This document shows, one piece after another, positions 1 through 18,958 of a stretch of DNA of 18,958 bases (positions are counted from its first letter, which is position 1; every line of letters begins with the position of its first letter). Under the pieces are notes generated by a model. The model was not told the origin of the DNA, made no database searches, and worked only from the letters and a program-made list of their open reading frames with translations. A program made the translations under genes and the position numbers. The stretch covers positions 1 through 18,958 of the forward strand of contig CAXHJY010000250.1 in the NCBI GenBank assembly GCA_964016885.1. Direction: 5' to 3'. Origin of the DNA: Eledone cirrhosa (Eukaryota).

Positions 1-926
1 TGTCCACTATTTCTATAGAACCCTCTGCGCAATTGAAAGAGCTAGTATTTTGTCGGCACTTGCTGCTACTTATTGCACCAGAGCACTGGCCACATGTAAA
101 ATCTATGTTCTTAGTTAGCTTACCTGTGATCCCACTACATCTTTTATGCACCCATACTTTGCATTTGGGACACAAAATGGAGTTTCTACCTACGCCTTTC
201 CTACACACTGAGCATGGCCACTTCCCGGAAGGGACCGGTCATCTGCGTATAGGAGTTCCCATGGGCAACCGGTCTTGAACTCCTCTGTTATAGCCTGAAG
301 GGCAATAATAAATAGTAGGGGGCTGAGAACAGAGCCCTGATGGACGCCAACTTTTACGCTAAACTCTTCATTATATTCGTTGTTAATTCTAACCTTGCTG
401 ACTGTTTCTTTATACATGGCTTGTATAGCTCTCACAAGCCATTCATCAACACCTAGTTTTCCAAGAGCCCACCAGATAATGGAACGGGGTACTCTGTCGA
501 AGGCTTTCTCCAAGTCGACAAAAGCTAAGTATAGGGGTTTACTTTTAGCTAGGTACTTCTCCTGTAGTTGTCGTACAATGAAAAGAGCGTCTGTGGTACT
601 TTTGCCTGACACAAACCCGAACTGCATTTCATCTAGATCAATTCTCTCTCTGATTAGTTGCGCTATTACTTTTTCCATGACCTTCATGACCTGGTCGATT
701 AATTTAATGCCTCTATAGTTACTCCTATCTAGGGCATCTCCTTTACCCTTATAACAGTTAACGATGATGCTGCTACGCCAGTCCTTCGGAACAACCCCAT
801 TCTGTATGACTTGGTTAACTATCCGGGTGACCATGGTGTGTCCCACCGTACCAGATGCCTTCAGCATCTCGGCAACTATTTCCGAAGGCCCAGCCGCCTT
901 ACCCATCTTCGTATCTTTGATTGCCT

Positions 927-929
<3 letters not shown>
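1..929 (-). mobile_element. RTE-clade LINE fragment (RT domain + PHD-like finger), 5'-truncated, internally deleted, runs off the window edge
   Basis: ORF 190..984(-) reads [49 protein letters not shown]. Homology to the + copy starts at ~929. About 136 bp after YADD are missing (junction 236/237), causing a frameshift. The shifted frame gives KWPCSVC...WVHKRC...CGQC. Confidence 0.93.
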
Positions 930-964
<35 letters not shown>

Positions 965-1475: not shown

Positions 1476-3602
1476 GAATGTGTATCCGGAATGATAAAGG
1501 TGAGCTTGCCTCACAAGTGCTGAGAAGAAAGATGCATGGAAGAGTCATTATGATAGATTACTAAATGAGGAGAATGCATGGGAAGAAGAGACCCTACTCC
1601 AAGTAGACCCTATAGAGGGGCCAGCAGTACAAGTCAGCAGCAGCGTAGTAAGTAAGGCAATCAAAGATATGAAGATGGGGAAGGCAACCGGTCCATCGGG
1701 TATAGTTGCCGAGATGCTGAAGGCATCTTGGTCTGTAGGTCACACTATAACCACACGTATTGTTAACCAGGTAATACTAGAAGGTGTCAAACCAAAAGAT
1801 TGGTGCAGTAGCATCATTGTCAACTGCTACAAAGGTAAAGGTGATGCACTAGATGGAGGAAACTATAGAGGTATAAAGATGATGGACCAGGTCATGAAAG
1901 TAACAGAAAGAGTTGTAGCACAGTTGATTAGGGACCGGGTGAAACTAGACGAGATGCAATTTGGGTTTGTACCAGGAAGAGGCACCACTGATGCCCTCTT
2001 CCTTGTCAGGCAGTTACAGGCAAAGTACCTAACAAAAAGTAAGCCACTCTACCTGGCATTTGTCGACCTTGAGAAAGCCTTTGACAGAGTTCCACGTGCT
2101 GCAATCTGGTGGGCTCTTAGAAAAGTAGGAGTAGATGAATGGCTTGTGAAAGCGGTACAAGCCATGTATAGGGGAGCAGTCAGCAAAGTTAGGATTAGCA
2201 ATGAGTATAGCGAGGAATTTAGCGTACAGATTGGGGTCCACCAGGGCTCTGATCTTAGCCACCTCTTGTTCATCATAGTCCTACAGGCAATAACGGAGGA
2301 GTTTAAGACCGGATGCCCATGGGAACTCCTGTATGCTGATGACCTCGCACTTATAGCTGAATCTATAGTAGAACTAGAGAAGAAATTCCAAACTTGGAAG
2401 CAGGGACTAGAAAGAAAGGGTCTCAATGTCAACCTGACAAAGACTAAGGTCCTTGTAAGTAGACGAGAAAACAGAACCCAGATCCCCTCAGGGAAATGGC
2501 CTTGCTCAGTATGTAGGAAAGGTATAGGTAGGAACTCCATTCTCTGCCCCAAATGCAAACAATGGGTACTCAAGAGATGTAGCGGGATCTCAGGAAGTTT
2601 AATTAAGAATGTAGGCTTCACATGCAGCAGCTGTGCTGGGACAGCAAGCAGCAAACAGCCACAGAAAACAAGTACCACCAATCTCTGGGAGGGCTCTGTA
2701 TAAACAGTAGACAGCTTCTGCTACCTAGTTGACCGAATTAGCAGCGGAGGTGGGTGTTCAGAAAGTACAATAACTAGGGTAAGAATGGGATGGAAGAAGT
2801 TTAGGGAACTACTACCACTGCTAGCTGCAAAAGGCTTCTCCCTCAAAATGAAAGGCAGACTGTATGATGCGTGTATCCGAACATCGATGTTGCATGGTAG
2901 TGAGACCTGGGCACTGAAGGTGGAAGACTTACGTAGATTAGAGAGAAACGAAGCCTGCATGCTCCGATGTGTGTGTAATAGTAATATACGCGAACGACAA
3001 AGCATAAATGAGTTGAGAGAGAGACTGAGCATAAGAGGAATCAAATGCTGTGTGCAGGAGAGGCGGTTGTATTGGTATGGACATGTGATGCATATGAAGG
3101 ATGACAGCTGCATAAAAAGGTGCAGAGCACTAGAAGTCGATGGAAATCGCGGAGTGGGGAGACCCAAGATGACCTGGGATGAGGTGATAAAAGCCGACCT
3201 TACCCAATTACACCTCTCAAAGGCGATGACACAGGACCGTGACCTCTGGCGTCACGCAGTAATACAGAGTACCCAACCGCCCATGGGTACAAGCTGAAGC
3301 ATATAGACAATATGCCCCCACACCCCCCACTGCAAGGTGGTTGTGGAGGTGCCACACCAAAAAAGCACCTAGCCCACACTGTAAAGTGGACGTGTAGGCG
3401 CCACGAAAAAGCACCCAGCACTCACTGTAAATGAGGTTGGTGTTAGGAAGGGCATCCAGCTGTAGAAATCAAGCCAAATCAGTTCCTGTATGAGGAAGGC
3501 ATGGTCAGCCGACCAGACACTGCCCACAACAGGACATCCCGTCTAACCCATGCTAGCGTGGAAGAACGGACGTAAAACGGTGATGATGATGATGATGATG
3601 AT
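1476..3602 (+). mobile_element. RTE-clade LINE, 5'-truncated (RT, C-terminal domain, 3' UTR, (GAT)n tail)
   Basis: Continuous RTE-like ORF homology from ~1478 to 3297. The 3' UTR contains GGTTGGTGTTAGGAAGGGCATCCAGC and a terminal stem-loop, followed by a (GAT)n tail at ~3581-3602. Confidence 0.95.
1478..3297 (+). pseudogene. Disrupted RTE reverse transcriptase ORF (frameshift ~1510, premature TAA at 2701)
   Basis: [10 protein letters not shown] shifts to [22 protein letters not shown], which is in frame with ORF 1669..2703. TAA at 2701 corresponds to GAA in the minus copy. The same frame continues (TVDSFCYL...) into ORF 2785..3297 (LHGSETW, RRLYWYGHV, GRPKMTW, DRDLWR). Confidence 0.92.
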
Positions 3603-5731: not shown

Positions 5732-5912
5732 TATATTCATGCAGGCAGCAGACATAAAGAGAGAGGAGTAGTATGAGGTAGTCAAATTAGTCACAGAAAT
5801 TTGTATATAGATATAACAACTTTAAAATAGCTTAGTATCATAGAATGAAGGTACCAACTAAGCAGTTTGTCATCAAATATTTAGCAAAGACATGTCTTCT
5901 CAACCTTATTCC

Positions 5913-8900
5913 TGGGTGGAATGTGGGAGCTGAGTCGTCAAACTACTGGGTGGGATGTGGGAGCTGAGTTGTCATGGGTGGGATGTGGGAGCTGAGTCGT
6001 CAAACTACTGGGTGGGATGTGGGAGCTGAGTTGTCATGGGTGGGATGTGGGAGCTGAGTCGTCAAACTACTGGGTGGGATGTGGGAGCTGAGTCATCAAA
6101 CTACTGGGTGGGATGTGGGAGCTGAGTTGTCAAGCTACTGGGTGGGATGTGGGAGCTGAGTTGTCAAGCTACTGGGTGGGATGTGGGAGCTGAGTCGTCA
6201 AGCTACTGGGTGGGATGTGGGAGCTGAGTCGTCATGGGTGGGATGTGGGAGCTGAGTCGTCATGGGTGGGATGTGGGAGCTGAGTCGTCATGGGTGGGAT
6301 GTGGGAGCTGAGTCGTCATGGGTGGGATGTGGGAGCTGAGTTGTCATGGGTGGGATGTGGGAGCTGAGTCGTCAAACTACTGGGTGGGATGTGGGAGCTG
6401 AGTCGTCAAACTACTGGGTGGGATGTGGGAGCTGAGTTGTCAAGCTACTGGGTGGGATGTGGGAGCTGAGTCATCAAACTACTGGGTGGGATGTGGGAGC
6501 TGAGTCGTCAAACTACTGGGTGGGATGTGGGAGCTGAGTCGTCAAACTACTGGGTGGGATGTGGGAGCTGAGTTGTCTAGCTACTGGGTGGGATGTGGGA
6601 GCTGAGTCGTCAAACTACTGGGTGGGATGTGGGAGCTGAGTTGTCAAGCTACTGGGTGGGATGTGGGAGCTGAGTTGTCAAACTACTGGGTGGGATGTGG
6701 GAGCTGAGTCGTCAAACTACTGGGTGGGATGTGGGAGCTGAGTTGTCAAGCTACTGGGTGGGATGTGGGAGCTGAGTCGTCAAACTACTGGGTGGGATGT
6801 GGGAGCTGAGTCGTCATGGGTGGGATGTGGGAGCTGAGTCGTCAAGCTACTGGGTGGGATGTGGGAGCTGAGTCGTCAAACTAATGGGTGGGATGTGGGA
6901 GCTGAGTCGTCAAGCTACTGGGTGGGATGTGGGAGCTGAGTCGTCAAGCTACTGGGTGGGATGTGGGAGCTGAGTCGTCAAGCTACTGGGTGGGATGTGG
7001 GAGCTGAGTCGTCATGGGTGGGATGTGGGAGCTGAGTCGTCAAGCTACTGGGTGGGATGTGGGAGCTGAGTCGTCATGGGTGGGATGTGGGAGCTGAGTC
7101 GTCAAACTACTGGGTGGGATGTGGGAGCAGAGTCGTCAAACTACTGGGTGGGATGTGGGAGCTGAGTTGTCAAACTACTGGGTGGGATGTGGGAGCTGAG
7201 TCGTCAAACTACTGGGTGGGATGTGGGAGCAGAGTCGTCAAACTACTGGGTGGGATGTGGGAGCTGAGTCGTCATGGGTGGGATGTGGGAGCTGAGTCGT
7301 CAAACTACTGGGTGGGATGTGGGAGCAGAGTCGTCAAACTACTGGGTGGGATGTGGGAGCTGAGTTGTCAAACTACTGGGTGGGATGTGGGAGCTGAGTC
7401 GTCATGGGTGGGATGTGGCAGCTGAGTCGTCAAGCTACTGGGTGGGATGTGGGAGCTGAGTCGTCAAGCTACTGGGTGGGATGTGGGAGCTGAGTTGTCA
7501 ATCTACTGGGTGGGATGTGGGAGCTGAGTCGTCATGGGTGGGATGTGGGAGCTGAGTCGTCATGGGTGGGATGTGGGAGCTGAGTCGTCAAACTACTGGG
7601 TGGGATGTGGGAGCTGAGTCGTCAAACTACTGGGTGGGATGTGGGAGCAGAGTCGTCAACCTACTGGGTGGGATGTGGGAGCTGAGTTGTCAAACTACTG
7701 GGTGGGATGTGGGAGCTGAGTCGTCAAACTACTGGGTGGGATGTGGGAGCAGAGTCGTCAACCTACTGGGTGGGATGTGGGAGCTGAGTTGTCAAACTAC
7801 TGGGTGGGATGTGGGAGCTGAGTCGTCATGGGTGGGATGTGGGAGCTGAGTCGTCAAACTACTGGGTGGGATGTGGGAGCTGAGTCGTCAAGCTACTGGG
7901 TGGGATGTGGGAGCAGAGTCGTCAAGCTACTGGGTGGGATGTGGTAGCTGAGTCGTCAAGCTACTGGGTGGGATGTGGGAGCTGAGTCGTCATGGGTGAG
8001 ATGTGGGAGCTGAGTCGTCAAGCTACTGGGTGGGATGTGGGAGCTGAGTCGTCATGGGTGGGATGTGGGAGCTGAGTCGTCAAACTACTGGGTGGGATGT
8101 GGGAGCAGAGTCGTCAAGCTACTGGGTGGGATGTGGGAGCAGAGTCGTCAAACTACTGGGTGGGATGTGGGAGCTGAGTCGTCATGGGTGGGATGTGGGA
8201 GCTGAGTCGTCAAGCTACTGGGTGGGATGTGGGAGCTGAGTCGTCAAACTACTGGGTGGGATGTGGCAGCTGAGTCGTCAAGCTACTGGGTGGGATGTGG
8301 GAGCTGAGTCGTCATGGGTGGGATGTGGGAGCTGAGTCGTCATGGGTGGGATGTGGGAGCTGAGTCGTCAAGCTACTGGGTGGGATGTGGGAGCTGAGTC
8401 GTCATGGGTGGGATGTGGGAGCAGAGTCGTCAAGCTACTGGGTGGGATGTGGGAGCAGAGTCGTCAAGCTACTGGGTGGGATGTGGTAGCTGAGTCGCCA
8501 AGCTACTGGGTGGGATGTGGGAGCTGAGTCGTCATGGGTGGGATGTGGGAGCTGAGTCGTCAAACTACTGGGTGGGATGTGGGAGCTGAGTCGTCAAACT
8601 ACTGGGTGGGATGTGGGAGCTGAGTCGTCAAGCTACTGGGTGGGATGTGGCAGCTGAGTCGTCAAGCTACTGGGTGGGATGTGGGAGCTGAGTCATCAAG
8701 CTACTGGGTGGGATGTGGGAGCTGAGTCGTCAAGCTACTGGGTGGGATGTGGGAGCTGAGTCGTCATGGGTGGGATGTGGGAGCTGAGTCGTCAAGCTAC
8801 TGGGTGGGATGTGGGAGCTGAGTCGTCAAGCTACTGGGTGGGATGTGGGAGCTGAGTCGTCATGGGTGGGATGTGGGAGCTGAGTCGTCAAACTACTGGG

Positions 8901-10577
8901 TGGGATGTGGGAGCTGAGTCGTCATGGGTGGGATGTGGGAGCTGAGTCGTCAAGCTAATGGGTGGGATGTGGGAGCTGAGTCGTCATGGGTGGGATGCGG
9001 GAGCAGAGTCGTCAAGCTAATGGGTGGGATGTGGGAGCTGAGTTGTCAAGCTACTGGGTGGGATGCGGGAGCAGAGTCGTCAAGCTACTGGGTGGGATGT
9101 GGGAGCTGAGTCGTCATGGGTGGGATGTGGGAGCTGAGTCGTCAAGCTACTGGGTGGGATGTGGGAGCTGAGTCGTCAAACTACTGGGTGGGATGTGGGA
9201 GCTGAGTCGTCAAGCTACTTGGTAGGATGTGGCAGCTGAGTCGTCAAGCTACTGGGTGGGATGTGGGAGCTGAGTCGTCAAACTACTGGGTGGGATGTGG
9301 CAGCTGAGTCGTCAAGCTACTGGGTGGGATGTGGGAGCTGAGTTGTCAAACTACTGGGTGGGATGTGGGAGCTGAGTCGTCATGGGTGGGATGTGGAAGC
9401 TGAGTCGTCAAGCTACTGGGTGGGATGTGGGAGCAGAGTCGTCAAGCTACTGGGTGGGATGTGGGAGCTGAGTCGTCAAGCTACTGGGTGGGATGTGGGA
9501 GCTGAGTCGTCATGGGTGGGATGTGGGAGCTGAGTCGTCAAACTACTGGGTGGGATGTGGGAACTGAGTCGTCAAACTACTGGGTGGGATGTGGGAGCTG
9601 AGTTGTCAAACTACTGGGTGGGATGTGGGAGCTGAGTCGTCATGGGTGGGATGTGGGAGCTGAGTCGTCAAGCTACTGGGTGGGATGTGGGAGCTGAGTC
9701 GTCATGGGTGGGATGTGGGAGCTGAGTCGTCAAACTACTGGGTGGGATGTGGGAGCTGAGTCGTCAAACTACTGGGTGGGATGTGGGAGCTGAGTTGTCA
9801 AACTACTGGGTGGGATGTGGGAGCTGAGTCGTCAAGCTACTGGGTGGGATGTGGGAGCAGAGTCGTCAAGCTACTGGGTGGGATGTGGGAGCAGAGTCGT
9901 CAAGCTACTGGGTGGGATGTGGGAGCAGAGTCGTCAAGCTACTGGGTGGGATGTGGGAGCTGAGTCGTCAAGCTAATGGGTGGGATGTGGGAGCTGAGTC
10001 GTCATGGGTGGGATGTGGGAGCTGAGTCGTCAAACTACTGGGTGGGATGTGGGAGCTGAGTCGTCAAACTACTGGGTGGGATGTGGGAGCTGAGTCGTCA
10101 AACTACTGGGTGGGATGTGGGAGCTGAGTCGTCAAACTACTGGGTGGGATGTGGGAGCTGAGTCGTCAAGCTACTGGGTGGTATGTGGGAGCTGAGTCGT
10201 CATGGGTGGGATGCGGGAGCAGAGTCGTCAAGCTACTGGGTGGGATGTGGGAGCTGAGTCGTCATGGGTGGGATGTGGGAGCTGAGTCGTCAAGCTACTG
10301 GGTGGGATGTGGGAGCTGAGTCATCATGGGTGGGATGCGGGAGCAGAGTCGTCAAGCTACTGGGTGGGATGTGGGAGCTGAGTCGTCATGGGTGGGATGC
10401 GGGAGCAGAGTCGTCAAGCTACTGGGTCGGATGTGGGAGCTGAGTCGTCATGGGTGGGATGCGGGAGCAGAGTCGTCAAGCTACTGGGTGGGATGTGGGA
10501 GCTGAGTCGTCATGGGTAGGATGTGGGAGCTGAGTCGTCAAGCTACTGGGTGGGATGCGGGAGCAGAGTTGTCAAAC
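5913..10577 (+). repeat. G-rich minisatellite, roughly 145 units of 28 bp (TGGGTGGGATGTGGGAGCTGAGTCGTCA) or 34 bp (+A[A/G]CTAC)
   Basis: Unit starts at 5947, 5975 (28 bp) and 6009 (34 bp). Uninterrupted over ~4.67 kb with few substitutions. The unit count is an estimate. Confidence 0.99.
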
Positions 10578-10807: not shown

Positions 10808-10942
10808 GATAAATCTACCAAAATATATGGTAGTGTCCAATCCGTATGAAGAACTCAATGTAATCCAAATATCATGAAAAGAGAAGATGCACTCAAAAAT
10901 GTTCGATGAAAATCACAGGAAAACAGAGTCAAGATGAATTTA

Positions 10943-10952
<10 letters not shown>

Positions 10953-10991
<39 letters not shown>
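10953..10991. repeat. (TA)n microsatellite preceded by (TTTA)n
   Basis: Pure TA run. Confidence 0.95.
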
Positions 10992-10995
<4 letters not shown>

Positions 10996-11143
10996 TTACT
11001 TTGGAAGGGTCATGTTGCCAATAAGAAACACACGCACCAGTTGCTTTCACTTCAATTTATTATAAATTAAATTTGTAAATTTAGGAATTTATAAATTTCC
11101 GGTTGGTTGGTTGGTTCCACAACCAGATGATTGTTCATATATT

Positions 11144-11186
11144 GTCAAAGTTCTTTTGTCACATATTCTGTGATCTCTTCAGTGAC
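11144..11186 (-). ncRNA. Degenerate type I minimal hammerhead ribozyme (probably inactive)
   Basis: Minus strand: GTCA-CTGAAGA-gaTCACA gaata TGTGAc-AAAA-GAAC-TT-TGAC. Stem I GTCA/TGAC, stem II TCACA/TGTGA, with GAAA mutated to AAAA. Confidence 0.65.
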
Positions 11187-11369
11187 TGGGGATTCTTTTC
11201 TTTGTTTTTGTGTGCGTTGTGTGCTTAGTTTGCGCATCTGTTACATCCGGGTGTCTGTGTGTGTTTATATTTGTTTATTTATTTGTTTATTTACATGTTA
11301 TGGTTGGTTGTTTGTTCTATGTGTGTGTGTGTGTGTTTTCATTTTGTCCTTAATTGTAAGTTGTGATGT

Positions 11370-12309
11370 TGCTATTCCATTCATGCTTTCTATTTAATTA
11401 TGGTTGGAGTTCGTTTATGTTTATTGCCTCTGTGATTTGTCTAAACATTGCGTCTTTTCTGTGTGTAGATTCTATTTTTATTTCTATGTTCTCTAATTTA
11501 ACCTTATGTTCTATTTTAGCATGTTGGTAGAGTACAGATGATTCTTTACTATCTTGAAGCTCTCACCAGTGTTCATTTATCCGTTCTCCTATACTACGAG
11601 CTGTCTGACCTATGTACACTATATTCTTATCTCTACATTGTCCTTCAGTACATCTTATGCTATATACTACATTTATAGTTTTACAGTTAATATGGGGGCT
11701 TAATTTACAGATTATACATTTCTTATCTATACAGGGAGGTCTTTGAAAAGGGTATGTATTGCTAATAAGTGTTTTTATGGAGGTACCTGGTCTTTCTACT
11801 ATCTTAATATTGAGTTTATGTTTATCTAGGGCCCTTCTGAATTTGTAAGCTAATTCACCTCTAGGGGTTGTGTTGATGAACATTACACTCTGGTATTTAT
11901 TGCTATCATACCATGAGTTTATTCTATTAACCTTATTCCTAGTTCTTTCTATTCTATTCCAAAATTTGCTCCTATACAAGGGGCAGGTCCCGTTTGTATC
12001 ATTATTTACCATTTTTTCCCATTTGGTTCTGGTCTTATCTCTCTGATTGTAACCAGAGAACTGCATACGGTGGATGAAGTGTTGTATGTGTCTCTCTAGT
12101 TCTTTGGGGTTGCACATGCGGGACACATTTCTCATCACCCGTACCAAATCTGCAATCAATATATTGATTTTGGTGTGGTTCGAAACGGCTGAGTTTCGGT
12201 GGATTAGATATTTGGAAGTCATGGGTTTGGCATAATGGGAATGGAGGATCTGTTTTTTGTTAATGATAGTATCTAACCAGAGCTCTGTGTCTAGTACAGG
12301 TAATCGATT
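11370..12309 (-). pseudogene. Disrupted Penelope RT-thumb/GIY-YIG endonuclease ORF
   Basis: ORF 11563..12222(-) plus in-frame extensions on both sides. In-frame stops at 11563-11565 and near 11400. Confidence 0.85.
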
Positions 12310-12310
12310 T

Positions 12311-13132
12311 GCAGACTATATGATGCCTGCATACAAACAGCAATGTTACATGGCAGTGAGACCTGGGCAGAGGATCTGCGCAGACTGGAAAGGAACGAAG
12401 CTTGCATGCTCCGCTGGATGTGTAATAGTAATATACGTGAACAGCAAAACATAAATGAACTAAGTGAGAAATTAGGAATGAAAGGTATCAGATGCTGTTT
12501 ACTCAAGAGAAGACTACGTTGGTATGGTCACGTGATCTGCATGAAAGACAACAGCTGCATAAAAAAGTGCAAGGTAATCAAAATTGATGGTAGTTACGGA
12601 GTAGGTAGACCCAGAAAAACCTGGGACGATTTGATAACAACTGACCTTGCACACTTACACCTCTCTAAGGCAATGTCACTGGATCGAGATCTTTGGCGCT
12701 ATGCAGTAATACAGAAGACCCGCCTTGCCTAAGTACAAAGCGAAACCTACAGTCAGTAGGCACCTCTTAACCAAAAATACACCCCCATCACACTACCCCT
12801 ATTCCACCCCCACACCTATCAACACCACCCCTTTCTCTGTAAAGTTATGTTGGTACCACAACATCCAGTCCTAAATAAATGAGGTCGTGTAGGTGTCATG
12901 ACAAAAAAAACACACAGTCCACCCTGTAATGTGGCCGTGTAGGTAACACGGTAAAAACCTCCCAGCCCACACTGTAAACGTTGTTGGTGTTAGGAAGGGC
13001 ATCCAGCCGTAGAAAACCTGCCAGACAGTCCCCATACGAGCAAGACAACCAATCTTGCCTCAAGTGGGACAATTACCGTCTAAACCCATGCTAGCGTGGA
13101 CGATAGACGTTAAACGATGATGATGATGATGA
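12311..13132 (+). mobile_element. RTE LINE 3' fragment (subfamily B) with 3' UTR and (GAT)n tail
   Basis: Starts at RLYDAC. ORF 12343..12732 matches the RTE C-terminus with a 9-bp deletion after ETWA. Tail at 13116-13132. Confidence 0.93.
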
Positions 13133-13421
13133 AGTGATATGAAATAAGAGTTATTTCAACTTTGATAACCATTAGGATAACATTGATATTTTCTCCAGAT
13201 CATATATAGTACACTAGAATGAAATGTTTGCAAAGAAATACAAAGCAGTACCTATTTATAGAGGAACTGAACTGATGGATTGAAAGGTTCTAATCTATTA
13301 TTTTGTTGCCAAATCTGCACAGCTACTAACTGCATAGACAAAATTGTATCATAAATGTATCAGTGAATGTGAAGTTATATATAGAAATTATATGCAGTAT
13401 AAACAGAGCACACATGCATTT

Positions 13422-13445
13422 GTATGTATGTATATATATATATAC

Positions 13446-13477
<32 letters not shown>
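13422..13477. repeat. (TA)n/(TGTA) microsatellite
   Basis: Direct reading. Confidence 0.9.
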
Positions 13478-13483
<6 letters not shown>

Positions 13484-13516
13484 TCACAGTTTCGTTTATG
13501 TATATAATATACATGC

Positions 13517-14485
13517 GTTACCTGGGCGATAAAATCAGCAGTGGGGGAGGGTGCTCTGAAAGTACTGTAGCTAGAGTCAGAACTGGTTGGAAAAAGTTCA
13601 GAGAGCTTATACCACTATTAGCTGCTAAAGGGTTCTCCCTAAAAATGAAAGGCAGGTTGTACGATGCCTGCATACGAACAGCAATGCTGCATGGCAGTGA
13701 GACCTGGGCATTGTGTGCAGAGGATATACGCAGACTAGAGAGGAACGAAGCTTGCATGCTCCGCTGGATGTGTAACAGTAATATACGTGAATGGCAAAGC
13801 ATAAACGAACTTAGGAAAAAATTAGAGATAAGAGTGATCAGATGTTGTTTACTCGAGGGAAGGCTATGTTGGTATGGACACGTGATGCGCATGAAAGTCG
13901 ATAGCTGTATAACAAAGTGCAGGGCAATAAAGATAGACGGTAGTCACGGAATAGGCAGACCTAGAAAAACCTGGGACGAGCTGATAAACTCCGACATCAC
14001 ACACTTACACCTCTCCAAGACAATGTCACTGGACCGAGACCTTTGGCGGTACTCAGTAACAGAGAAGACCCGCCTTACCTAAATATATAGTAAAACCTAC
14101 TCCAGCCAGTAGGCATCTCTAACAAAATACACCCCGTCCCACCACCACCACCCCCACCCCATCCACACCACCCCGTTCTATGTAAAGTTATGTTGGTGCC
14201 GCGCCATCGAGGCCGAAACAAATGAGATCGTGTAGGTGTCACGACAAAAAAACACACAGTCCACGCTGTAATGTGGCCGTGTAGGCAACACGGTAAAAAC
14301 CTCCCAGACCCACACTGTAAATGTGGTTGGTGTTAGGAAGGGCATCCAACTGTAGAAAACCTGCCAGACAGTCCTATGCGAGCAAGACAATCACTCTTGC
14401 CTCAAGTGGGACTACCCCCGTCCAAACCCATGCAAGCGTGGAACACGGACGTTAAACGTTGATGATGATGATGATGATGATGATG
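13517..14485 (+). mobile_element. RTE LINE 3' fragment (subfamily B) with 3' UTR and (GAT)n tail
   Basis: YLGDKISSGGGC...DRDLWR open to the stop at 14082. The 3' UTR is colinear with 12733-13115. Tail at 14461-14485. Confidence 0.94.

Positions 14486-15500: not shown

Positions 15501-15539
<39 letters not shown>
15501..15539. repeat. (TA)n microsatellite
   Basis: Pure TA run abutting an RTE tail. Confidence 0.95.
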
Positions 15540-15541
<2 letters not shown>

Positions 15542-15868
15542 TCATCATCATCATTATCATCGTTTAACGTCCATCTTCCATGCTTGCATGGGTTTGGACG
15601 GGAGTTTTCCCACTTGAAGCAAGATTGGTTGTCCTGCTCGCATATGACTGTCTGGCGAGTTTTCTACGGCTGGATGCCCTTCCCAACACCAACTATTTTT
15701 ACAGTGTGGACTGGGAAGTTTTTACCTTGTGACCTACACAGTCACATTACAGAGTGGACTGTGTGTTTTTTTTGTCGTGACACCTACACAACCTAATTTG
15801 TTTCGGACTGGATGTTGTGGTACCAACATAACTTCACATTTAAGGGGGTGGTGTGGATGGGGTGGGGA
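15538..15868 (-). mobile_element. RTE 3' UTR fragment (subfamily B) with (GAT)n tail, flanked by (TA)n on both sides
   Basis: The reverse complement is colinear with the 3' UTRs of the 12311 and 13517 copies. Confidence 0.9.
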
Positions 15869-15882
15869 TATATATATATATG

Positions 15883-15929
<47 letters not shown>

Positions 15930-15933
15930 GTAT
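15868..15933. repeat. (TA)n microsatellite with TGTA interruptions
   Basis: Direct reading. Confidence 0.93.
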
Positions 15934-16057
15934 ATAATATATAAGAACAAAAGATGGTTAAAAGAGTTCCATGTATTTTATTATGGGCATTTCAAAAACA
16001 AATATCATCATGCAATAATATTTGTGTTTTCATCAGATAAAACAGGAGGACATGATA
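15934..16057. repeat. Left arm of 124-bp inverted repeat (partner 18604-18727)
   Basis: Base-by-base comparison gives 122/124 identity. Confidence 0.97.
15968..16047 (-). ncRNA. Type I minimal hammerhead ribozyme
   Basis: Reverse complement of the 18614-18693 motif. Intact CTGATGA and GAAA boxes; stem III region ATGCCCAT, cleavage triplet ATA. Confidence 0.85.
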
Positions 16058-16701
16058 TGAAGGTTAAAAAACACTTGTGGATAGTTCAGTTTTAAATCAA
16101 CATATGAGAAGTAGTTTTAGATTGATGTGTGATATTGGGAAAAATATTTTATTTAGAGGAGGTGGGGTGGAAAGGATGAAAAAAAAAGGAGATGAGAGTG
16201 AAGGTGGAGAGGGAGGAGTATAATGAGGAAGGATGAGATAGGAGGAGAGATGGGTGATAGAGAGAGAGAGATAGCTTTTATAACTGAGAAAGATATATTG
16301 TTTTACATAGAGAGGTTGAAAACCGTTGGAAGATAATGTATAAATTAAAAGAATTTGAAAATTAACGAAGAGAATAATAATGTAAAGTTAAGGTTTGTAT
16401 ATTGATGGGTTTGATAATATGTGCTAAGAAAAAGAAAGAGTTAATATGTATTGAGAATAATGAGTTAGATGATAGGGAGAAAAGAATAATGAATTGAGGA
16501 TGAATAATCTGACGTCAAAAAAAATGTATATGTTTACGAAGGATTTTTACAAGGTGATATAGAGTAAGAGTAATGAGTAAACAAGTATTATAGAATGTAT
16601 AATAACCTTTGAAATAAGGTAGAAAGATGGGTATATTTTAAAAATAAGTGTATATATATGTGCCTTTGAGAAAAGATTCTAAATTGATAAAGAATTGAAT
16701 A

Positions 16702-18603
16702 TTAGCTGTATACTTTGTGAAATGTTTTGTGGAATTTATGCAAGCAGATAGAAAACAAGTCAGTGCGTCTATTTATTATAGAATCTAGATTAGAGATAAT
16801 GGTAAATTTTTCATTTAGACAGAGATTGCAGATTTTAGATAGAGAACTGTTCAAGTATGTAGACGCAGAAGAAACCTTCTTCCAAAATATGCTATATTTA
16901 ATGTTTTTGTCTTTCAAGGACCATATGAGTTCTGAGAGAGCCGTGTTGGTTCTTTTAAGTTTATATTTAAAAGACGAATGATGGTTATAAAGACGAGCTT
17001 TAAAAGAGGTGGAAGTGGAGCCAAAATAGGTGAAGGAATTGGTGTCAGTTATAACTTTACATTTGTAAATTAAGTTTTTATCAAGACAGTGGTTGTTGAG
17101 AGGACATTTATTTTTAACAGGGCAATTGCAATTGTAATTAGAGAGATTATTAATGAGTGACCTAGTGTTATCTATAGAAGGAATTGGATTGGAGAAGTTG
17201 TTTGCGATAGGAATAATAGTTTCTTGATTTAGAATGGGATTATGAACATTTAGCGAAGTTGTGTTTGACGTTGTATTTGGGTTTGTAGAAATTAGCCTAG
17301 GGTTTACAATGACGTCGGGAGTACTATTGTTATGAAATTCAGTGTTGGAAGGAAGAGATTTAGTATTTAGTATTTTATTGTTGTGTTTAGAGATAATGTT
17401 GGAAATGTTGGAGGATGTAGAATAAGAAAATTTGATGGTGTGTTTGTTAAATATTTTACTATAGATATGTGAGGGAGGGAAGCATTTATTTAAGGCACTA
17501 AAGAATAATTTAGGAATATTGTTATTAATAGAGATGGAGAAAGGAGCATTATACCAGATTATGTTTTTGTATCTAGGTCCTTTATTAAAGTTATTGGAAT
17601 GATCATGATTAATAATTCTACTGTAATTTCTTCTAGAATTTGTTTCTTTACTATATTTTGATTTTATCTGGATAACCGGCTTTAGAAAGCGCGTTATTAT
17701 AGTAATTGGCGTTAGCATCAAAGATGTTTTATTAGAAGATAGGTTAGATATTCTTTTTTCCAATATTACTAACTATAGCATTCTTGATATTGGTAGGATG
17801 GATAGATTAAAGTTAACATAATTTAGGTTCTCATTGTTTTTATGGTAAGGGTAATATAGGCCAGTGTCAAGATTAAGAGATACATCCAAGAAATAGCTAG
17901 TTTGATACTGTTATCAAATTCAATTTTTAGGTTATGTTGGTTAAAGAGATTACATATATTGTTCTTAATAATATTAAGGTTAACTATATTGCCAATTTAA
18001 GATAGTAAAGAGGTCCATCGTCACGATAAATTCCACTGCGAAGTTGAGGAATTTTCCGACTCAAAGAGTTCAAAAATGAACATACCAATTAAATCAGGTC
18101 AATTGGGATGAATCGGATGCTCCCATTGTGATGTCGAAGTTGTTAGAGGTATTGGCTCTGGTCCAATATTCGTTGTTGAACTCTAGGATGGTTTTACGTG
18201 CGGTGAGAATGATGTGAAGTTCATCTTGTGGTGATGTCAGAATATTTAAGTGCGAAAAAATAGAGCATTATTGAGAAGTGAAGGCGAAATGGAGGAATAG
18301 TAGCTGGCAATATCAAATTGAAAAAAAATTTTAGTTTGTTTTTATTATTCAATTTGTTGAACCAGCTAATCACTTCAGAAGTACCAAACCATAAATTTAG
18401 GTTCAAAAGAAAAGCAATTAGAACGAACCTGTGGGATAATTCTATCCAAGATGGCTTTACTAACAACCCCCCAGATCAGATTTAGAGGGGGGCGATTAAT
18501 CTAACAGGTAGTTCAGTGGGAAAAATTGTTTTTGTGATCCTTGAGATTTATCCTCGGAGTTCTTGGGAGGAATGGTTCAGTCTTTTTTTCAATGCGAAGT
18601 TTT
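16702..18603 (-). pseudogene. Disrupted Penelope RT + GIY-YIG ORF
   Basis: The GIY-YIG half is open (353 aa ORF). The RT half (17764-18603) has multiple frameshifts and stops. Confidence 0.87.
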
Positions 18604-18727
18604 TATCATGTCCTCCTGTTTTATCTGATGAAAACACAAATATTATTGCATGATGATATTTGTTTTTGAAATGTGCATAATAAAATACATGGAACTCTTT
18701 TAACCATCTTTTGTTCTTATATATTAT
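18604..18727. repeat. Right arm of 124-bp inverted repeat (partner 15934-16057)
   Basis: Base-by-base comparison gives 122/124 identity. Confidence 0.97.
18614..18693 (+). ncRNA. Type I minimal hammerhead ribozyme
   Basis: Stem I TTTTAT (18619-24)/ATAAAA (18680-85); CTGATGA 18625-31; 15-position stem II 18632-46/18653-67 with one mismatch and one G-U; GAAA 18668-71; short stem III ATG-TG-CAT; predicted cleavage after AUA at 18679. Confidence 0.88.
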
Positions 18728-18812
18728 GTATACTCCAGTCCTACAAACTGTAGAGTGCTTCTTATCCGATATTTGCATTGCTTTATTGTACTACAATAAA
18801 ACTCACCTCCTA

Positions 18813-18814
18813 CA

Positions 18815-18862
<48 letters not shown>

Positions 18863-18958
18863 CATATATGTATGTATATATATATATATACATATCTGTA
18901 TGTATATATATATATATACATATATGTATGTATATATATATATATACATATATGTATG
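18813..18958. repeat. Compound (TA)n microsatellite with TACATATATGTATG higher-order motif
   Basis: Direct reading; runs off the window edge. Confidence 0.95.

What the first reader, a model, noticed from the sequence alone, without database searches (positions are those of the whole stretch)
15934..18727. Penelope-like element bracketed by two outward-facing hammerhead ribozymes in 124-bp inverted termini
Seen: both arms hold a complete hammerhead core with an unusually long AU-rich stem II, and each is oriented away from the element centre, so a transcript of either strand would meet a ribozyme near its 3' end. The arms are 122/124 identical while the enclosed RT is heavily frameshifted. 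Established: Penelope elements have minimal type I hammerheads and often show inverted pLTR arrangements. Inference: a defective copy recently mobilised in trans or homogenised by gene conversion; the structure mimics a TIR transposon.
Basis: partly seen in the sequence, partly recalled or inferred. Interest (0 to 1): 0.75.

Follow-up and report, generated by a model that had tools for sequence, protein, structure and literature searches.

The report
Ordinary Penelope insertion with inverted ribozyme end
This is one of thousands of copies of a Penelope-type jumping gene whose end, carrying a predicted self-cutting RNA motif, also sits back to front at its start, a layout already described; almost every such copy has one short and one long end, which likely means both strands of the cut DNA start copying.

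Summary
The sequence observation holds. The arms (15934-16057, 18604-18727) match at 122 of 124 bases, and each folds as a type I hammerhead pointing outward. The element is larger than stated: the right arm carries an 88-nt family tail to 18815. It is a 5'-truncated Hydra-clade Penelope-like element in (TA)n. The genome has 14,788 exact copies of its ribozyme core; 64 of the first 100 listed lie in outward-facing pairs. This layout (inverted truncated copy, one-sided tail) is published. The junction occurs once. Arm identity is ordinary for the family. The frameshifts are private to this copy, confined to 870 bp, all homopolymer-length changes, with no excess of substitutions, so likely an assembly error rather than decay. 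The family data add something: 62 of 63 inverted pairs have exactly one tailed end, paired arms share subfamily alleles, and 20 pairs, including this one, cannot come from a single fold-back. This favours two priming events at two fixed RNA sites. Hammerhead cleavage and expression were not tested. The scan noted similar things earlier on other DNA of this genome.

The parts
15868..15933 (.). (TA)n-type microsatellite, left flank (insertion target)
   Evidence: the family ends in TA runs at nearly all ends
15934..16057 (-). 3' end of the element (pLTR), tail-less 'short' end, holding the sense hammerhead
15973..16044 (-). Type I hammerhead motif in sense orientation; core CUGAUGA 16036-16030, predicted cut after 15982; its loop III has lost the family palindrome (self-dimer -0.9 against -10.5 kcal/mol in L002)
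   Evidence: mirror of the fold; activity not tested
16058..16701 (-). 3' UTR; the position about 48 nt upstream of the arm (near 16105) is the family's commonest 5' truncation point
16702..17655 (-). Open 3' part of the ORF: end of RT thumb, N/S/T-rich insert, CxCx5C linker, GIY-YIG endonuclease (LIY..YFG), CxxC and CxH motifs; no indels against the family
17656..18603 (-). 5'-truncated RT region (starts near residue 179 of the L002 frame; YRDD at 18029-18018); 16 private indel events, all within 17656-18525
18603..18604 (.). Head-to-head inversion junction, no microhomology, unique in the assembly
18604..18727 (+). Inverted 5'-truncated pLTR copy with the second hammerhead (18617-18687; core 18625-18631; predicted cut after 18679)
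18728..18815 (+).
18816..18958 (.). (TA)n-type microsatellite, right flank, running to the end of the contig

Best explanation
This is a single insertion of a Hydra-clade Penelope-like retrotransposon in a TA repeat, made of a long 5'-truncated copy joined head to head to a 212-nt inverted copy of the element's own end, likely formed when both nicked strands of the target each primed reverse transcription. Shown: the domain order RT then GIY-YIG, a hammerhead fold in the pLTR, two fixed 3' ends 88 nt apart in the family, one of each per inverted insertion, and a unique junction. Inferred: the element's protein nicks both strands of (TA)n; one nick primes at the tail-less site and here copied about 2.67 kb; the other primes 88 nt further downstream and here copied 212 nt; the two cDNAs, made from the same RNA or the same source locus, were then joined. 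The second ribozyme is then a passenger of the pLTR, not a selected part. The frameshifts arose after copying and only here, most likely as local sequencing-consensus error (about 60%), otherwise as one error-prone synthesis event.
For: Family: 14,788 exact matches to a 22-nt hammerhead-core word, 1,763 to a 22-nt endonuclease word, 8,998 to the tail end. Of the first 100 listed core matches (contig C1, first 43 Mb), 64 form 32 outward-facing pairs within 6 kb, against 1 inward-facing neighbour pair. Ends: 62 of 63 head-to-head pairs found among the loci have one tail-less and one tailed end; 38 of 39 in the two searches that did not select for the tail. Same template: at five subfamily sites paired arms agree in 198 of 212 comparisons against about 111 expected if independent; within-pair divergence 2.0%, between 4.6%. 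Two priming events: in 20 of 62 pairs, the window included, the tail-less arm reaches more than 15 nt further 5' than the tailed arm and has no tail to copy from, so one fold-back cannot make it. Independent origin: 26 of 26 short-dimer spacers differ; the window junction is unique. Literature: inverted truncated copy and one-sided tail (PMC8557442; PMC3846280); in vitro both strands are cut and extended and RT starts at two internal sites that delimit the tail (PMC11167929). Frameshifts: 13 insertion events in 942 nt against 1 in 23,176 nt of 29 other copies (Fisher p about 7e-18), all 16 events lengthen or shorten a run of identical bases, and the window is a whole 19-kb unplaced contig.
Against: 33 of 62 pairs are also compatible with fold-back of a tail-primed cDNA, 4 with fold-back from the other end, and 5 are unclear; many short dimers are nearly symmetric at a palindromic centre, as the published self-priming model expects. 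In vitro, PMC11167929 saw no difference in start site between strands, which does not by itself predict one end of each kind. One pair (L025) has two tails. Loci were the best BLAST hits, not a random sample, and the two L072 pairs are a local duplicate. Against assembly error: 18526-18815 has no indels though nearer the contig end, and a neighbouring repeat at 10957-12300 shows no insertion excess (1 insertion, 3 deletions). At the hammerhead's 10.1-11.1 position the pair is A-U, not the conserved G-C. No biochemistry was done.
Confidence: 0.75

Rival explanations
1. Single priming, then self-priming: one cDNA (or an antisense template) folds back and is copied, and the endonuclease resolves the product 88 nt short, leaving a one-sided tail.
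For: 33 of 62 pairs fit tail-first fold-back and 4 fit the reverse; near-symmetric palindromic junctions are common; it explains shared alleles; proposed in PMC3846280, with endonuclease resolution of the tail suggested in PMC8557442.
Against: Cannot make 20 of 62 pairs, including this window, without an extra jump back onto RNA. No palindrome or microhomology at the window junction.
Confidence: 0.2
2. One reading: a defective composite unit is mobilised in trans or cut and pasted like a TIR element, or its arms are kept alike by gene conversion.
For: Arms 98.4% identical, above the family median of 96.8%. Mobilisation in trans between pLTRs is reported for rotifer elements.
Against: Junction unique; no indel shared with 29 copies; 26 of 26 short-dimer spacers differ; ends asymmetric; same-template copying already explains arm identity.
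Confidence: 0.04
3. The frameshifts are real and come from one error-prone fill-in or late reverse transcription next to the junction (polymerase theta adds single bases in runs; recalled, not from a call).
For: The tract is bounded on both sides, starts 78 nt from the junction, and is insertion-biased; the rest of the contig tested is not affected.
Against: Seen in 1 of 30 long copies; no substitution excess; 870 nt is long for such a polymerase (recalled); small unplaced contig.
Confidence: 0.25
4. Both ribozymes are functional: transcripts of either strand are trimmed at their 3' end.
For: Core positions are conserved in 127 family arms; the family loop III is palindromic, as in dimer-type motifs.
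Against: The family is young, so conservation says little. The antisense arm would pair with the ribozyme. Both window loops depart from the palindrome. Ribozyme mutants did not affect insertion in vitro in another PLE.
Confidence: 0.08

Closest known systems
Hydra-clade C-terminal EN+ Penelope-like elements, e.g. Hydra-1_Obim (Craig et al. 2021, PMC8557442)
   Same: Single RT-EN ORF, DKT motif, CxCx5C linker, no CCHH inside GIY-YIG, CxxC and CxH around the conserved E and N, (TA)n targets, hammerhead near the 3' end.
   Different: A different family: other hammerhead sequence, stem II of 15 bp against 7 bp listed for Hydra-1_Obim, a long 3' UTR (768 nt), an N/S/T-rich insert of about 70 residues, RWI in place of RWK. 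Compared by eye only; no tree was built.
Inverted pLTR with one-sided tail in EN+ PLEs (Adineta vaga Pen2a, PMC3846280; fig. 2 legend of PMC8557442)
   Same: Adjacent inverted 5'-truncated copy, head-to-head, tail at one end, palindromes at many junctions.
   Different: Tail is 88 nt, against 30-40 nt reported; the one-of-each rule is counted here (62 of 63); no target duplication can be read in (TA)n.
Poseidon_Ac internal initiation (Frangieh et al. 2024, PMC11167929)
   Same: Two fixed 3' ends that delimit a tail lying downstream of the hammerhead in the upstream pLTR; AT-rich targets.
   Different: There the start sites lie 111-118 nt inside the ORF and the ORF begins in the ribozyme; here both ends lie upstream of the ORF.
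Minimal hammerheads of metazoan PLEs (Cervera and de la Pena 2014, PMC4209133)
   Same: Type I, long helix II, short palindromic helix III; that paper already reports pairs 100-700 bp apart on opposite strands in Schistosoma.
   Different: Helix II is about twice as long (15 against 7-8 bp), AU-rich, and closed by A-U rather than G-C.
TIR transposons and MITEs
   Same: Inverted termini; thousands of 300-500 bp copies in TA context.
   Different: Ends asymmetric, junctions all different, RT and GIY-YIG rather than a transposase.

Membership tests
EN+ Penelope-like element | Single ORF with RT followed by C-terminal GIY-YIG endonuclease | tested here: met
   YRDD RT motif and LIY..YFG motif in order in window and L002; homologues at 31-42% identity. 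Pfam gave no hit; the assignment rests on motifs and on comparison with the Hydra alignment rows.
EN+ Penelope-like element | pLTRs from partial tandems, direct or inverted | tested here: met
   Upstream pLTR running into the ORF in L002, L003, L004, L018; inverted copies in 63 pairs
EN+ Penelope-like element | Optional tail at one end | tested here: met
   88-nt tail; one end only in 62 of 63 pairs; longer than the 30-40 nt reported
EN+ Penelope-like element | Hammerhead motif in the pLTR | tested here: met
   Constrained fold and column conservation; Rfam did not detect it
Hydra clade | DKG modified to DKT | tested here: met
   SDKT in L002; this part is truncated away in the window copy
Hydra clade | CxCX5C linker; CCHH absent; CxxC and CxH around E and N | tested here: met
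   CNCPVKNKC, one C between the GIY and YIG positions, CNLC and CLH in the window ORF
Hydra clade | N-terminal RWK motif | tested here: inconclusive
   RWI in L002, RWR in three homologues
Hydra clade | Insertion into (TA)n | tested here: met
Hydra clade | Placement in the clade by RT phylogeny | not tested
   No reference sequences were loaded into the tools
Active hammerhead ribozyme | Self-cleavage at the NUH site, as monomer or dimer | not testable with these tools
   Fold only
TIR transposon / MITE | Symmetric terminal inverted repeats and a conserved unit moved whole | tested here: not met
   Asymmetric ends; junction unique; 26 of 26 spacers differ
Non-LTR retrozyme | Direct tandem repeats of 150-300 nt, each with a hammerhead, no ORF | tested here: not met
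   No such array at the element; neighbours within 6 kb are head-to-head in 32 of 35 cases. Definition from the abstract and recall.

The most novel reading that the evidence does not exclude
Penelope-type insertion is obligately two-ended: the protein primes the two nicked target strands at two different fixed RNA sites, one each, on the same transcript. Inverted pLTRs, one-sided tails and the thousands of MITE-like 430-bp double-hammerhead hairpins in this genome would all be the normal output of that one reaction, with the hotspot 48 nt upstream of the arm marking the RNA's 5' end.
Probability: 0.5. Interest if true: 0.55.

Novelty: new member of a known kind. Interest (0 to 1): 0.3.

Why it matters
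The locus itself is ordinary. The family is useful because how Penelope elements form inverted ends and tails is still open (PMC8557442, PMC11167929). Thousands of young copies with two sharp ends allow a genome-wide count that separates two-strand priming from fold-back, and they name the two RNA positions to test in vitro. Practically, such insertions can be mis-annotated as MITEs or TIR elements, and frameshifts on small unplaced contigs should not be read as decay.

Tried and rejected
Rfam scan: no hammerhead among 110 hits at E<=1, nearly all TA-repeat noise. Pfam: no relevant family for window or L002/L004 frames. PDB sequence search: nothing significant. Phage tblastn: no match. Read test of junction and frameshifts, inconclusive: no RNA holder listed. 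Contigs of three runs from one sample and one RAD-seq run showed the family state at the 12 indel sites listed, with 11 more rows not shown. At 100% likeness no listed piece crossed an indel or the junction (only the longest pieces are listed). The same runs also lacked several of the window's private substitutions in the clean half, so they may be another individual; a hole proves nothing. Read depth over the arms was far above the ORF, but the tool says it is no copy number, so pattern counts were used instead. Search for an allelic or empty site: the flank tried (10850-12300) is itself a repeat, 95 matches. The shared start at query position 125 in many hits first looked like a shared junction; it is only where this copy is truncated. 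Hammerhead cleavage as the source of 5' ends: no cluster at the cut site (+75) among the 5' ends listed; the cluster is at -48. Rows dropped before counts: L031, L032, L065 (the window again), L062-L064 (another repeat), L075, L085 (same place as L072, L077), L084, L088 (segmental duplicates of L083, L087). Literature: five searches; the one for Penelope with 'twin priming' returned one unrelated review, which does not show the idea is unpublished, as many subscription papers are outside the library.

Full report
Observation. The inverted repeat is real: 15934-16057 against 18604-18727, 122 of 124 bases, the two differences in loop III of the hammerhead. A fold with the core held open gives a type I hammerhead: stem I 8 bp, CUGAUGA, stem II of 3+12 bp, GAA, a short stem III and an AUA triplet with the cut after 18679. 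The left motif reads on the minus strand, the right on the plus strand. Rfam did not find it. The closing pair of stem II is A-U where PMC4209133 reports a conserved G-C. In the family copy L002 loop III is a perfect palindrome, the dimer type; both window arms depart from it.

What the element is. The coding strand is minus. The window holds a 5'-truncated RT followed by an open GIY-YIG frame ending at 16702. The motifs fit the Hydra clade as defined in PMC8557442 (passages): DKT (in L002), CxCx5C linker, no CCHH, CxxC and CxH, (TA)n target, hammerhead. The supplement lists a cephalopod member, Hydra-1_Obim, with similar RT motifs but a different ribozyme. No tree was built, so clade membership rests on motifs. 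The window is the whole of contig C277 in a 3.0-Gb assembly.

The boundaries need correcting. Sequence 18728-18815 recurs at family ends and, in upstream pLTRs, runs on into the 5' UTR and ORF. The family has two sharp 3' ends 88 nt apart, each normally followed by TA repeats. The window has the tail-less end on the left and the tailed end on the right. The insertion is 15934-18815: a long sense copy joined head to head to a 212-nt inverted copy.

How common it is. Exact word counts in the genome: 14,788 for the hammerhead core, 1,763 for the endonuclease, 8,998 for the tail end. Of the first 100 core matches listed, 64 lie in 32 outward-facing pairs within 6 kb, 19 of them under 300 bp apart; there is 1 inward-facing neighbour pair. 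Two outward-facing hammerheads are thus the usual state in this family. The layout is in print: inverted 5'-truncated copy and one-sided 30-40 bp tail (PMC8557442, passages; PMC3846280, passages), and opposite-strand hammerhead pairs 100-700 bp apart (PMC4209133, parts 1-2 of 4).

The junction word occurs once in the genome. Against 29 other long copies, the window has 13 insertion and 3 deletion events between 17656 and 18525 and none in 16702-17655; no gap column is shared with any copy. The other 29 copies have 1 insertion in 23,176 nt of the same half. All 16 events change the length of a run of identical bases (contexts), and substitutions are not raised (19/942 against 22/949). That is not decay and was not inherited from a defective source. 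It resembles long-read consensus error (recalled profile). Against that, the 290 nt from 18526 to 18815 are clean and a neighbouring repeat shows no insertion excess. The public runs could not settle it. I put assembly error near 60%, one-off error-prone synthesis near 25%. Arm identity is unremarkable: 2.0% mean divergence within 44 pairs, and 18 and 26 of 126 unrelated arms are as close to the window's arms as they are to each other.

Mechanism. Among 63 head-to-head pairs in the fetched loci, 62 have one tail-less and one tailed end; 16 of 17, 24 of 24 and 22 of 22 in the three searches, the second of which selected for the tail. Paired arms share subfamily alleles: 198 of 212 at five sites against about 111 expected; two further sites in the CpG of loop III show no such agreement (54 of 88 against 57 expected) and were biased by my queries. 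Both arms therefore come from one template or one source locus. Junctions differ every time (26 of 26 short spacers), so dimers are made anew rather than moved as units. In 20 of 62 pairs, the window among them, the tail-less arm is the longer and has no tail to copy, which a single fold-back cannot give; 33 fit tail-first fold-back, 4 the reverse, 5 are unclear. Two priming events, one per nicked strand at different RNA sites, explain all classes. This agrees with the in vitro finding that a PLE protein cuts and extends both strands and starts at two internal sites that delimit the tail (PMC11167929, parts 1-2 of 4), though that work saw no strand difference in start site. The analogy to L1 twin priming is recalled. 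The step is inferred, not shown. 5' ends cluster about 48 nt upstream of the arm (53 of the ends listed fall between -50 and -41), which may mark the transcript start or a fold-back or annealing hotspot; untested.

The second ribozyme. A transcript crossing the whole insertion in either direction makes the antisense arm first; its duplex with the sense arm is predicted at -190.7 kcal/mol against -15.6 for the arm alone. The inverted ribozyme is most simply a passenger. In the one PLE tested, ribozyme mutants did not affect insertion.

Other papers seen: bioRxiv 10.64898/2026.07.22.740005, abstract and outline only; PMC13282606, passages, no mention of hammerheads or the Hydra clade. After forming this reading I looked up earlier scan notes; several describe the same layout and a two-start model on other DNA of this genome. 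They are unchecked notes and add no support.

Verdict. Real feature, known architecture, new family member. The family counts give a modest, testable argument for two-strand priming. Interest 0.3.

Noticed in passing
Genome-wide; e.g. L036, L038, L040, L048-L050, L066, L079: Many family copies are 300-500 bp head-to-head hairpins of two hammerhead arms that look like MITEs; 5' ends cluster about 48 nt upstream of the arm, possibly the transcript start.
   Followed up: partly
window 5912-10575: Tandem array of a 34-bp G-rich unit, about 144 copies, with 28-bp variants.
   Followed up: no
window 10938-12300: Another repeat family, 88-92% identical copies on many contigs, also flanked by TA runs and with inverted partial copies nearby in some hits.
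   Followed up: partly
window 237-932 / 1649-2344, 2722-3500, 12364-14481, 15538-15861: Older dispersed repeats, some in inverted pairs; the 250-aa frame at 13330-14082 resembles the C-terminus of an RTE-type LINE (recalled; Pfam gave no relevant hit).
   Followed up: no
window about 17100-17350, minus strand: N/S/T-rich insert of about 70 residues between RT thumb and endonuclease linker; homologue P0001 has an N-rich insert at the same place, as do rotifer Penelope elements at a similar place.
   Followed up: no
L014 and L015 (G000:C1:199.092-199.098 Mb): A 6-kb head-to-head insertion of two long copies, one tailed and one tail-less; not counted among the 63 pairs because it spans two loci.
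   Followed up: partly
L025 (G000:C1205): The one pair of 63 with a tail at both ends.
   Followed up: no
L083/L084 and L087/L088 (G000:C1:426.59 and 426.81 Mb): Matching insertions 220 kb apart, apparently a segmental or assembly duplication.
   Followed up: no
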